Assembly: GCF_009914755.1 (NCBI RefSeq)
Contig: NC_060938.1
Source: the human T2T-CHM13v2.0 reference genome, Homo sapiens
DNA: 64,000 bases
Reading direction: 5' to 3' (one strand)
Shown here: positions 38,901 to 57,385 of the stretch, one piece after another
How the letters are laid out: the number at the start of each line of letters is the position of its first letter
Numbering within the stretch: position 1 is the stretch's first letter
Translations under genes and position numbers: made by a program
The notes under the pieces: model-generated
The model's database searches: none
What the model saw: only the letters and a program-made list of their open reading frames with translations
Told to the model about the DNA's origin: nothing

Positions 38901-39702
38901 CCCAAATGTAGGGATTTTCATGAGTGAGGCACATACACACAGGAAAGAACGAGGCAGATGAGAAGTTTCCTTAGTGTTCCTTTTCAGTGTTTCTCTGAGG
39001 TGCATCTAGGACCGCAAGAATTCATTTTCATCCACACTTGAGTGTCTTTGGTAAAACCCCAGGTGAGCTTATCGGGGCTGCACTGCAAACACATCACAAG
39101 GAAGCTGGTAAGAAATACAGAACCTCAGTCCCCACCCAGACCTACTAAATCAGATCTACATGATAACATTAGGCCCAGGTAATTCATATGCACATTGGAG
39201 TCTGAGAGCTGTGATGAAGAGGGAGTGGAGTAGCGGTGGTGTGAGCAGGTGGATTCCTTCCATTATCTCTTTAGCTCTTTTACAATTTGGCTCCCACACT
39301 ACCACTTGACTAAAATCACTCTTCCAGGCCACTAGCTACCACTTTGTTGCCAAATCCAAAGCCTTTATCTTATTTGACCTGATGTTGGCCATCTACGCTG
39401 TTGGCCGCCCCTCTCTTGAAGGCCAAGAATTCCTGTGCTTTTCTCCTTCCCACCATCACTGTTTGCGTTCCAGGGACCTTTTGGTTGGCACTTGCCTCTC
39501 TGTCTTCCACCCTCTGCCTGCTAGGACCCTCTACCTCCTGAGGCTTTGGTGACCAGCTCTCTGATGGTGACCCCAAGACCACACCTCTCTTTTTAATTCT
39601 AGATTGTTATATGCAATTTACTTCTGGACACATTTACTTGAATTATTCCACAGGAAACTCAAAACACAAGGCTTATGGATGAGTGAGAGAAAGCAAGGTT
39701 TT

Positions 39703-39770
39703 CTTTTTTTTCTTTCTTTTTTTATTTCCTGTGACACAGCCCTCAAGAGATCCTGAGAACATGTGTGCCA
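39703..39770 (-). mobile_element. ~43-nt ERV1 (MER4/MER41-group) LTR fragment with poly(A) tail and TSD
   Basis: TGGCACACATGTTCTCAGGATCTCTTGAGGGCTGTGTCACAGG plus an A tail; TSD AAAGCA(A)GGTTTT at 39690-39702 and 39771-39782. Confidence 0.75.
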
Positions 39771-39889
39771 AAAGCAGGTTTTGATACAGCATTTAGAGTG
39801 TGACTCATTCATGTAAAATCGAGTATATCTGTAGGAGCATATATGTGTAGAGAAATATGTAGAATAGTATTAATCAAAAACTTTAATAG

Positions 39890-40005
39890 CTGGTTGAGCA
39901 TAGTAGCTCATGCCTATAATCCCAGCACTTTGGAGGCTGAGGTAGGAGGATTGCTTGAGGCCAGGACTTAGAAATCAGCCTGGGCAACATAAGGAGATCT
40001 TCATC

Positions 40006-40053
<48 letters not shown>
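39890..40053 (+). repeat. Alu monomer (FLAM-like) ending in a perfect (CA)23 microsatellite (40008-40053)
   Basis: Read directly from the sequence. Confidence 0.9.
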
Positions 40054-40055
<2 letters not shown>

Positions 40056-56420: not shown

Positions 56421-56479
56421 TTTTTTAGTTTGAATATGTCTATCTTATTTGAATTTTTTCTAAATAAAGTGCAATACTT

Positions 56480-56534
56480 TAAAAATATTTTTTTACATGA
56501 CACAGCCCTAAGGAGATCCTGGGAACATGTGCCC
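56480..56534 (-). mobile_element. Second ~40-nt copy of the same LTR fragment with an A tail and TSD
   Basis: GGGCACATGTTCCCAGGATCTCCTTAGGGCTGTGTCATGT plus A7; TSD AAA(G/A)TGCAATACTT at 56466-56479 and 56535-56548. Confidence 0.7.
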
Positions 56535-56886
56535 AAAATGCAATACTTAAAAAAAAAAATTCTACTTTGAAATAATGTTGTACTTACAGAAAGGTTACAG
56601 AAATCCTGTCAAGTCTTCCTATATACCTTTCACCTAGATTGCCTTAATAGTAACATCTTACGTAATCATAGTAGAATGATCAACATCATAAAATTAACAT
56701 TGACATAACATTATTAACTAATAATAACATTAGTAGTAGTAGTAGTAGTAGTATGCCTTATTCCAGTTTCATCATTGTCTCACTAATGTTCTTTTCAGGC
56801 CCAAGATTCCACATTGCATTTAGTTGTCCTGTCTCCTTAGTCTCCTTCTTCTTTTTTTGTTTTTTCATTAAAATTTGTATTTTTTC

Positions 56887-57197: not shown

Positions 57198-57385
57198 GGG
57201 TGCACTGTTCCTGGAAGTACTGCAATATCAGGTCAATGTGTGGAGTGGATGTAGCAAGCTCCTATTCCATCTCCTGTTTCCAAAAATCCATTTAATATAT
57301 TGTCCTTGGATAGAGGACATATCAGATATGAAACTGATAAAAACAGATACTATACTTGATCTTAGCCAAAAGACCAAGAAGTGAT
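57198..57385 (-). pseudogene. RNU2-14P: Full-length U2 snRNA retropseudogene (188 nt)
   Basis: The reverse complement ATCACTTCTTGGTCTTTTGGCTAAGATCAAGTATAGTATCTG...GGAACAGTGCACCC aligns end to end with U2. It shows CpG decay, an A-rich tail and a 15-bp TSD. The symbol is from memory of the locus. Confidence 0.95.

What the first reader, a model, noticed from the sequence alone, without database searches (positions are those of the whole stretch)
56466..56548. Independent second insertion of the same LTR hairpin fragment
Seen: GGGCACATGTTCCCAGGATCTCCTTAGGGCTGTGTCATGT plus a degraded A tail, flanked by its own TSD AAA(G/A)TGCAATACTT. It starts and ends within a few nucleotides of the copy at 39.7 kb but has unrelated flanks, so it is not a local duplication. 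Inference: two copies in 64 kb suggest a high genome-wide copy number and a defined RNA template.
Basis: partly seen in the sequence, partly recalled or inferred. Interest (0 to 1): 0.7.

Follow-up and report, generated by a model that had tools for sequence, protein, structure and literature searches.

The report
Retrocopy of an LTR leader hairpin
A 40-base piece of RNA made at the promoter of an ancient endogenous retrovirus was copied back into the DNA here by the LINE-1 machinery; it is one of at least 39 such copies in this genome, and they suggest this retrovirus made short, hairpin-ended transcripts.

Summary
Window 56495-56534 (sense on the - strand) is a 40-nt body, followed by a decayed 15-nt A-tail. 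A 14-bp target-site duplication (TSD; 13 of 14 identical) brackets the two. The copy at 39728-39769 has its own tail and TSD, and its flanks are unrelated.

The body matches only positions about 506-552 of a ~620-bp endogenous-retrovirus (ERV) LTR. That LTR family has at least 1,333 copies in this genome. In the LTR the body starts 30 nt after the first T of a TATAAA box. This makes it the first ~40 nt of R, which folds into a 15-bp hairpin.

Genome-wide I examined 39 short copies. All start within about 3 nt of that site, end at +29 to +47 (mostly +38 to +46), carry A-tails of up to ~29 A, and lack U3. Twenty have a flanking repeat of 10 nt or more, and insertion sites read T(T/C)|AA.

They are therefore LINE-1 (L1)-made retrocopies of a short LTR-initiated hairpin RNA, not LTR remnants. 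How that RNA acquired its 3' end and its A-tail is inferred, not shown. I found no description in print. The LTR family is unnamed here, and the insertions are undated because no primate genomes were available.

The parts
56535..56548 (-). Upstream target-site duplication (sense orientation), AAGTATTGCATTTT. It is preceded on the sense strand by an 11-T run, giving the insertion site TT|AAGT.
56495..56534 (-). Body of the retrocopy. It equals R +1 to about +40 of the ERV LTR (the leader hairpin). Compared with the commonest natural form it carries T13C and G25T, both of which weaken the stem.
56480..56494 (-). Decayed poly(A) tail, AAAAAAATATTTTTA on the sense strand.
56466..56479 (-). Downstream target-site duplication, AAGTATTGCACTTT on the sense strand. 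It matches the upstream copy at 13 of 14 positions.
39770..39782 (-). Sister copy: upstream TSD, AAAACCTGCTTTT on the sense strand. The insertion site reads TC|AAAA.
39728..39769 (-). Sister copy: body GGCACACATG...GTGTCACAGG, equal to R about +2 to +41. Its hairpin folds at -18.7 kcal/mol.
39703..39727 (-). Sister copy: decayed poly(A) tail, AAATAAAAAAAGAAAGAAAAAAAAG on the sense strand.
39690..39702 (-). Sister copy: downstream TSD, AAAACCTTGCTTT on the sense strand. It differs from the upstream copy by one indel.

Best explanation
The element is a dead-on-arrival retrocopy made by the LINE-1 (L1) machinery from a short RNA of about 40-46 nt. That RNA started at the transcription start site of an ERV LTR (the U3/R border) and ended a few bases past a stable 5' hairpin in R. 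What is shown: the body is R +1 to about +40; every short copy examined begins at that start site and lacks U3; the 3' ends fall in a narrow range just past the hairpin; an A-tail follows directly; TSDs bracket body plus tail; and insertion sites look like L1 endonuclease sites. What is inferred: the RNA was a capped RNA polymerase II (Pol II) transcript that terminated, or was cut, close to the promoter. It was then trimmed back to the base of the hairpin, as is described for HIV-1 TAR short transcripts. Its A-tail came either from a non-canonical poly(A) polymerase or from the L1 reverse transcriptase switching template from another RNA's poly(A) onto the short RNA's 3' end. The copy carries no promoter and has most likely been inert since insertion.
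For: Source and start site. Of 30 loci fetched by similarity, 24 carry the 40-mer inside an LTR, downstream of a TATAAA box and upstream of AATAAA and the LTR end. The other 6, including the window's own copy, are short forms. In the natural copy L014 the first T of TATAAA lies 30 nt before G+1.

Census. Pattern 1 gave 33 distinct places (reversed-pattern control 1), of which 25 carry the core. Pattern 2 gave 25 places (control 0), of which 24 are short forms and 1 lies inside an LTR. Ten copies are shared, so the union is 39.

Ends. In all 39, homology to the LTR begins at -1 to +3, apart from 5 A-rich chance extensions. It ends at +29 to +47, mostly +38 to +46. A natural LTR matches the window only over its positions 506-552.

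Insertion marks. A flanking repeat of 10 nt or more with at most 2 mismatches was found in 20 of 39. Of 19 insertion sites read, 12 are T(T/C)|AA and all 19 begin with A.

Independent check of the start site. L094 is a retrocopy of the whole of R. It starts at the same site, ends about 19 nt after AATAAA, and has an A17 tail and a 16-bp TSD.

Hairpin. The commonest natural form folds at -22.5 kcal/mol. The mean z-score against shuffles is -3.6 for the 39 short copies and -4.4 for 29 LTR copies.

More than one source. The variants T19C (15 copies) and deletion of A26 (9 copies) both occur in LTR copies as well.

Discrete 3' class. The search for copies whose A-run begins between about +45 and +74 turned up none.
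Against: No RNA was observed; everything is read from DNA copies. The short RNA contains no AAUAAA-like signal, so the origin of its tail is open. Both census patterns required an A6 run close to the body and an exact 11- or 16-mer, so the set is biased towards well-kept copies. The script found no TSD of 7 nt or more in 4 of 39 copies (L036, L057, L067, L088), and 3 of the 20 long repeats are low-complexity or far from the tail (L039, L043, L068). The extra 5' G is ambiguous: 19 of 39 short copies have 4 or more G where 25 of 28 LTR copies have 3, but in 5 of 9 copies with a clear TSD the extra G can be read as the last base of the TSD. The hairpin of the copy under study is weak after two substitutions (-14 kcal/mol, z -1.2). 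The search for intermediate-length copies was unspecific (11 hits against 25 for the control). The insertion was not dated, because no outgroup genome was available.
Confidence: 0.75

Rival explanations
1. The fragment is a remnant of a solo LTR or provirus, left after deletions removed the rest.
For: RepeatMasker-type annotation would label it an LTR fragment. LTR copies of this family are very numerous (1,333 exact junction 16-mers).
Against: There is no other LTR homology anywhere in the 64 kb. A TSD of 13-14 bp brackets body plus A-tail exactly. All 39 short copies share the same two borders, which independent deletions would not produce.
Confidence: 0.01
2. These are 5'-truncated L1 retrocopies of long ERV transcripts that were polyadenylated around +42 of the 3' LTR. 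In this reading the U3 TATAAA acts as a poly(A) signal brought close to the cleavage site by the hairpin.
For: TATAAA is a known weak variant of the poly(A) signal (recalled, not tested). The hairpin would shorten the effective distance between signal and site. This family did produce processed 3' ends: L098 and L100 end in R plus poly(A) and are truncated at their 5' ends.
Against: 5' truncation is random, yet 39 of 39 copies start within a few bases of +1 and none retains U3. The truncated processed copies that do exist use the canonical site after AATAAA, not +42.
Confidence: 0.04
3. Master-locus model. One or a few LTR loci had R interrupted at about +40-45 by a genome-encoded A-rich tract. 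These loci acted like a Pol II-driven SINE, and their transcripts were primed by L1 on the encoded A-tract.
For: The 3' ends fall into a few recurring classes...GGGC...TGG...GGCC and ...GGCCAT.
Against: No locus with U3 upstream and poly(A) at about +42 was found. The only LTR-embedded hit, L079, has no A-tail there. The short copies carry several source variants that are also common among ordinary LTR copies.
Confidence: 0.08
4. The short hairpin RNA is the same, but it was not adenylated. The L1 reverse transcriptase started on the poly(A) of an L1 or Alu RNA and then switched template to the 3' end of the hairpin RNA, in the way U6-L1 chimeras form.
For: The RNA has no poly(A) signal. Template switching onto small nuclear RNAs is established for L1 (recalled). 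Four of 39 copies are followed by a sense Alu within about 10-35 nt of the tail.
Against: No copy shows L1 3'-UTR sequence between body and tail. In L057 the Alu has its own A-rich flanking repeat, which fits a later insertion into the tail. The census patterns required an A-run directly after the body, so chimeras would have been missed.
Confidence: 0.12

Closest known systems
HERV-W processed pseudogenes (L1-made retrocopies of ERV transcripts, R-U5...U3-R-poly(A))
   Same: The transcript starts at the 5' end of R of an LTR. It is copied by L1, carries a poly(A) tail and long TSDs, and lacks U3 at its 5' end.
   Different: Only the first ~40 nt of R is copied, and the RNA did not end at the LTR's own poly(A) site. 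The LTR family is different. The abstract of PMC5537654, seen only as its opening lines in the listing, calls HERV-W the sole HERV group mobilised by L1. L094 and L098-L100 suggest that this family was mobilised too.
HIV-1 TAR short transcripts (promoter-proximal RNAs ending at the base of the 5' hairpin); recalled, not tested here
   Same: A stable hairpin begins at +1 or +2 of R, and the inferred RNA 3' ends lie a few bases past the stem.
   Different: This is an ancient endogenous element with a 15-bp stem rather than TAR. No Tat-like factor is known for it. Here the RNAs carry A-tails and were retroposed. The RNA itself was not observed.
Small-RNA retropseudogenes (U6, U2, Y RNA, tRNA-derived), for example RNU2-14P at window 57198-57385 (hub annotation)
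   Same: A short non-coding RNA copied by L1, with an A-rich tail and TSDs, and inert after insertion.
   Different: The template is inferred to be a Pol II leader fragment of a retroviral LTR, not a stable small RNA gene product. At about 40 nt it is shorter than most such templates.
R-region stem-loop of gammaretroviruses (MLV/SNV type); recalled, not tested here
   Same: A hairpin at the very 5' end of R in an LTR with a TATA box at -30, AATAAA inside R and a short U5.
   Different: There is no sequence match to any Rfam family. The class of this ERV was not established, because no retroviral Pfam domain was found.

Membership tests
L1-mediated processed retrocopy (retropseudogene) | A poly(A) tail directly follows the copied RNA. 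| tested here: met
   Window copy: 15-nt decayed tail. Sister copy: 25-nt tail. Other copies have up to about 29 A.
L1-mediated processed retrocopy (retropseudogene) | A target-site duplication of about 7-20 bp brackets body plus tail. | tested here: met
   13 of 14 positions match at 56466-79 and 56535-48. A repeat of 10 nt or more was found in 20 of 39 copies and none of 7 nt or more in 4 of 39.
L1-mediated processed retrocopy (retropseudogene) | Insertion site resembles the L1 endonuclease site (TT|AAAA in this orientation; the consensus is recalled). | tested here: met
   12 of 19 sites read T(T/C)|AA. The window copies read TT|AAGT and TC|AAAA.
L1-mediated processed retrocopy (retropseudogene) | It starts at or downstream of the source's transcription start and carries no promoter sequence. 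| tested here: met
   Homology begins at -1 to +3 in the 39 copies, and there is no U3. The TATA box lies at -30 in the LTR.
Solo LTR or LTR remnant | LTR sequence extends beyond the fragment, TG...CA termini, and a 4-6-bp TSD. | tested here: not met
   Only LTR positions 506-552 of about 620 are present. The TSD is 13-14 bp and encloses an A-tail.
HERV-W-type processed ERV pseudogene | The transcript ends at the LTR's own poly(A) site, 15-25 nt after AATAAA in R. | tested here: not met
   Short copies end at +29 to +47, about 25 nt before AATAAA. The feature is met by L094 and L098-L100 instead.
SINE | An internal promoter, so that copies can themselves be transcribed and give rise to further copies. 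| tested here: inconclusive
   The copies lack U3 and the TATA box, and their variants mirror those of the LTR copies. I made no search for Pol III box motifs.
TAR-like promoter-proximal short transcript | A stable hairpin starts at the 5' end of the RNA, and the RNA 3' ends lie at its base. | tested here: met
   The hairpin spans +2 to +36 and folds at -22.5 kcal/mol in the commonest natural form. The 3' ends of the copies lie mostly at +38 to +46.
TAR-like promoter-proximal short transcript | The short capped RNA is detected in cells. | not testable with these tools

The most novel reading that the evidence does not exclude
These copies may be a DNA fossil record of promoter-proximal attenuation in an ancient retrovirus. 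In this reading the LTR's 5' hairpin made Pol II transcripts end at about +40-46. The RNAs were trimmed to the base of the hairpin, A-tailed in the nucleus, and were abundant enough in the germ line to be retroposed by L1 dozens of times. That is far more often than the full R transcript, of which I found one retrocopy. The clustering of copies (8 pairs within 3 Mb against 1.4 expected) might then mean that nuclear-retained RNAs were retroposed near their source loci.
Probability: 0.3. Interest if true: 0.7.

Novelty: new variant of a known kind. Interest (0 to 1): 0.5.

Why it matters
The finding matters in four ways.

- **Start site.** It fixes, to the base, the transcription start, the R borders and the 5' hairpin of a very abundant extinct ERV LTR, using DNA alone.
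- **L1 substrates.** It extends the known templates of L1 trans-mobilisation to a ~40-nt leader fragment inferred to be a Pol II transcript, and to an ERV family other than HERV-W.
- **Testable prediction.** It predicts that LTR copies that are still active make short capped hairpin RNAs ending at +38 to +46, possibly with non-templated A-tails. This can be checked in existing short-capped-RNA and exosome- or Integrator-depletion data.
- **Annotation.** Such pieces are labelled as LTR fragments and could be misread as decayed LTR insertions when dating or counting ERV integrations.

Tried and rejected
**Naming the ERV.**
- The proviral copies measure about 8-9 kb from LTR to LTR.
- No retroviral Pfam domain appeared in three X-read frames of 8.4 kb of L075, in 8 of its ORFs, or in 72 ORFs of 55 aa or more from L095-L097. 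The only hits there were a piece of L1 ORF1 and a sub-threshold F-box match.
- The class and family name therefore stay open.
- A stretch 6 nt after the LTR end looks like a CpG-decayed primer-binding site for tRNA-Lys. That reading rests on recall and was not tested.

**RNA families.** Rfam gave nothing for the body or for R of a natural LTR copy.

**Literature.** Six full-text searches found no description of such copies.
- Searches returned 0 papers.
- Searches returned listings only.
- I read passages of PMC7692494, and they are not relevant.
- Subscription journals and Repbase/Dfam notes were not searchable.

**A-variant start site.** I asked whether an LTR variant with A in place of T before GGGCAC explains the A that precedes the G-run in 27 of 39 short copies. 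It does not: 13 such LTR junctions against 1,333 with T.

**Hairpin-Alu chimeras.** L057 fits a later Alu insertion into the tail. The other three cases were not resolved.

Full report
**1. The observation**

Read on the - strand, the locus consists of four parts:
- An upstream TSD, AAGTATTGCATTTT (56548-56535).
- A 40-nt body, GGGCACATGTTCCCAGGATCTCCTTAGGGCTGTGTCATGT (56534-56495).
- A decayed tail, AAAAAAATATTTTTA (56494-56480).
- A downstream TSD, AAGTATTGCACTTT (56479-56466).

The copy near 39.7 kb has a body at 39728-39769, a 25-nt A-rich tail, and a 13-nt TSD whose two copies differ by one indel.

Three checks put this beyond chance and show the two copies are not a local duplication:
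- A 33-nt core pattern with up to 3 mismatches hits only these two places. None of 100 shuffles gave a hit.
- An alignment with 200-nt flanks shows similarity only across the body.
- A natural full-length LTR copy compared with the whole 64 kb matches only LTR positions 506-546 and 511-552, at these two places.

So homology does not extend into the flanks, and the window holds no other piece of this LTR.

**2. Where the 40-mer comes from**

A similarity search of the window's own assembly gave 402 first-look candidates, of which 40 were scored. Of the 30 loci returned, 24 carry the 40-mer inside a longer repeat. The other 6, including the window's own, are short forms.

The longer repeat is an LTR of about 620 bp. 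Copies are roughly 73-88% identical to the natural copy L014. Its layout in L014 is as follows:
- A TATAAA box whose first T lies 30 nt before the first G of GGGCAC.
- The 40-mer itself.
- AATAAA about 70 nt after the start.
- The end of the LTR (...CGACA) about 45 nt later.

The 40-mer is therefore the first ~40 nt of R.

The family is large. The exact 16-mer across the U3/R junction occurs 1,333 times (reversed-pattern control 0). An exact 15-mer in the body followed by 19 free bases and a final A or T occurs 573 times.

Four proviral copies measure about 8-9 kb from LTR to LTR. I found no retroviral Pfam domain in them. The ERV class and the family name are therefore not established here.

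**3. A family of short copies**

Two independent patterns were run over the genome.
- Pattern 1 (3' 11-mer, a gap of 2-9 bases, then A6) gave 59 overlapping matches at 33 distinct places, with a reversed-pattern control of 1. Of these places, 25 carry the core and 8 are chance matches.
- Pattern 2 (5' 16-mer, a gap of 18-32 bases, then A6) gave 50 matches at 25 places, with a control of 0. Of these, 24 are short forms and 1 (L079) lies inside an LTR.

Ten copies are shared between the two sets. The union is 39 short copies. A Lincoln-Petersen estimate (25 x 24 / 10) gives about 60 copies that still keep an A6 run next to the body.

Two more candidates were seen only as matched strings and were not examined at their 5' side: C1:158404322 and C4:82141616.

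Among the first 100 of the 573 15-mer matches, 93 continue as LTR, 4 continue as poly(A), and 3 are unclear.

**4. Anatomy of the 39 copies**

I aligned each copy locally to a natural LTR copy that included 40 nt of U3.
- *5' ends.* Homology starts at -1 to +3. In five copies A-rich flanks extend the alignment by chance.
- *3' ends.* Homology ends at +29 to +47, mostly +38 to +46. By eye the commonest ends are ...GGGC (+42) and ...TGG (+40).
- *U3.* None of the 39 has U3.
- *Tails.* A-tails reach about 29 A (L031, L070).
- *TSDs.* A flanking repeat of 10 nt or more with at most 2 mismatches was found in 20 of 39. Three of these are low-complexity or lie far from the tail. In 4 of 39 no repeat of 7 nt or more was found.
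- *Insertion sites.* At 19 sites with a readable TSD, 12 read T(T/C)|AA and all begin with A. This fits the L1 endonuclease preference, which I recall rather than tested.

A search for copies whose A-run begins between about +45 and +74 turned up none. That pattern was unspecific, with 11 hits against 25 for the control.

**5. An independent check of the start site**

A pattern for the LTR's AATAAA followed by A7 found 4 places.
- L094 is a retrocopy of R alone. It starts at the same site (TAGGCATATG...), ends about 19 nt after AATAAA, and has an A17 tail and a 16-bp TSD.
- L098 and L100 are 5'-truncated copies that end in R plus poly(A).
- L099 is an LTR from its first base that ends in R plus poly(A).

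So transcripts of this family were retroposed in other forms too. The truncated ones have scattered 5' ends, in contrast with the uniform 5' end of the short copies.

**6. The hairpin**

The commonest natural 38-mer folds as a 15-bp stem with one bulge and a 4-nt loop, spanning +2 to +36, at -22.5 kcal/mol.
- The 39 short copies have a mean of -17.3 kcal/mol (mean z against shuffles -3.6).
- The 29 LTR copies have a mean of -19.4 kcal/mol (mean z -4.4).

The LTR loci were selected by similarity to the query, so these values are not from an unbiased sample.

The copy under study carries T13C and G25T, which open the stem (-14 kcal/mol, z -1.2). The sister copy folds at -18.7 kcal/mol (z -4.3).

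The 3' ends of the copies lie 2-10 nt past the stem.

**7. Mechanism**

The features shown are those of L1 target-primed reverse transcription of a short RNA. That RNA began at the LTR start site and ended just past the hairpin.

How the RNA acquired its 3' end and its tail is inference. R +1 to +46 contains no AAUAAA-like signal, so ordinary cleavage and polyadenylation is unlikely. Two routes remain open:
- Promoter-proximal termination or cleavage, trimming back to the hairpin, and A-tailing by a non-canonical polymerase.
- Template switching by the L1 enzyme from another RNA's poly(A) onto the short RNA.

The extra 5' G is suggestive but ambiguous. Nineteen of 39 short copies have 4 or more G, whereas 25 of 28 LTR copies have 3 (binomial P = 5.5e-5 at p = 0.2). 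An extra G could come from reverse transcription of the cap. However, in 5 of 9 copies with a clear TSD that G can equally be read as the last base of the TSD, which would point to microhomology at the junction.

**8. Sources and age**

The recurrent variants T19C (15 copies) and deletion of A26 (9 copies) also occur among LTR copies. More than one LTR variant therefore fed the short copies.

I measured divergence from the commonest natural form only over positions that the ascertaining pattern did not fix. It is 7.8% (45 of 575) for pattern-1 copies and 11.4% (52 of 456) for pattern-2 copies, source variants included. At a recalled neutral rate of about 2e-9 per site per year this points to tens of millions of years. 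It is not a date.

The two window copies are typical of the set, with 1-2 private changes each.

**9. Comparison with what is known**

The closest described case is the HERV-W processed pseudogene. It shares the machinery and the start at R, but it covers the whole transcript and uses the LTR's own poly(A) site.

In how it works, the closest analogue is the HIV-1 TAR short transcript (recalled).

As a retroposed small RNA it resembles snRNA pseudogenes such as RNU2-14P, which lies 650 bp away according to the hub annotation.

Six literature searches found no description of LTR leader-hairpin retrocopies. I saw search listings, plus passages of one paper. Subscription journals and repeat-database notes were out of reach, so prior description cannot be excluded.

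**10. Verdict**

The element itself is most likely inert. The interest lies in the family: a discrete class of ~40-nt leader retrocopies from a very abundant LTR. I rate it a new variant of a known kind, with interest 0.5.

Noticed in passing
Genome-wide (39 short copies); window pair at 39728-39769 and 56495-56534: The short copies cluster. There are 3 pairs within 1 Mb (0.48 expected if spread uniformly) and 8 pairs within 3 Mb (1.43 expected). Flank GC is 41.5%, which is genome-like, so a simple GC bias does not explain it.
   Followed up: partly
5' junctions of the 39 short copies (loci L002-L090): The base before the G-run is A in 27 of 39 short copies but T in 25 of 28 LTR copies. An A-variant LTR junction is rare, at 13 against 1,333. 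The A is therefore a property of the insertion junction, and I have no explanation for it.
   Followed up: partly
L094 (C9:26162150-26162560); L098, L099, L100: The same LTR family also left other retrocopies: one of R alone that ends at the canonical poly(A) site, and several U3-R-poly(A) 3' ends, two of them 5'-truncated. This family was therefore L1-mobilised in the way HERV-W was.
   Followed up: partly
L057, L068, L081, L088: Four of 39 short copies are followed within about 10-35 nt of their tail by the 5' end of a sense-oriented Alu. L057 fits a later Alu insertion into the A-rich tail. The other three were not resolved.
   Followed up: partly
L075, L095, L096, L097 (proviral copies): The elements are about 8-9 kb from LTR to LTR but have no detectable gag, pol or env Pfam domain. 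A CpG-decayed stretch 6 nt after the 5' LTR resembles a tRNA-Lys primer-binding site. That reading is recalled and untested.
   Followed up: partly
R positions +38/+39 in LTR and short copies: This dinucleotide reads CG, TG or CA across copies. That is the pattern expected from decay of an original CpG.
   Followed up: no
Window 57198-57385 (-): RNU2-14P, a U2 snRNA pseudogene in the hub annotation, lies 650 bp from the finding and on the same strand. It is another small-RNA-derived copy.
   Followed up: no
Window 56731-56753; 40008-40054; about 39885-40000: The window also holds a (TAG)n microsatellite, a (CA)n microsatellite, and an Alu-like stretch beside the sister copy.
   Followed up: no
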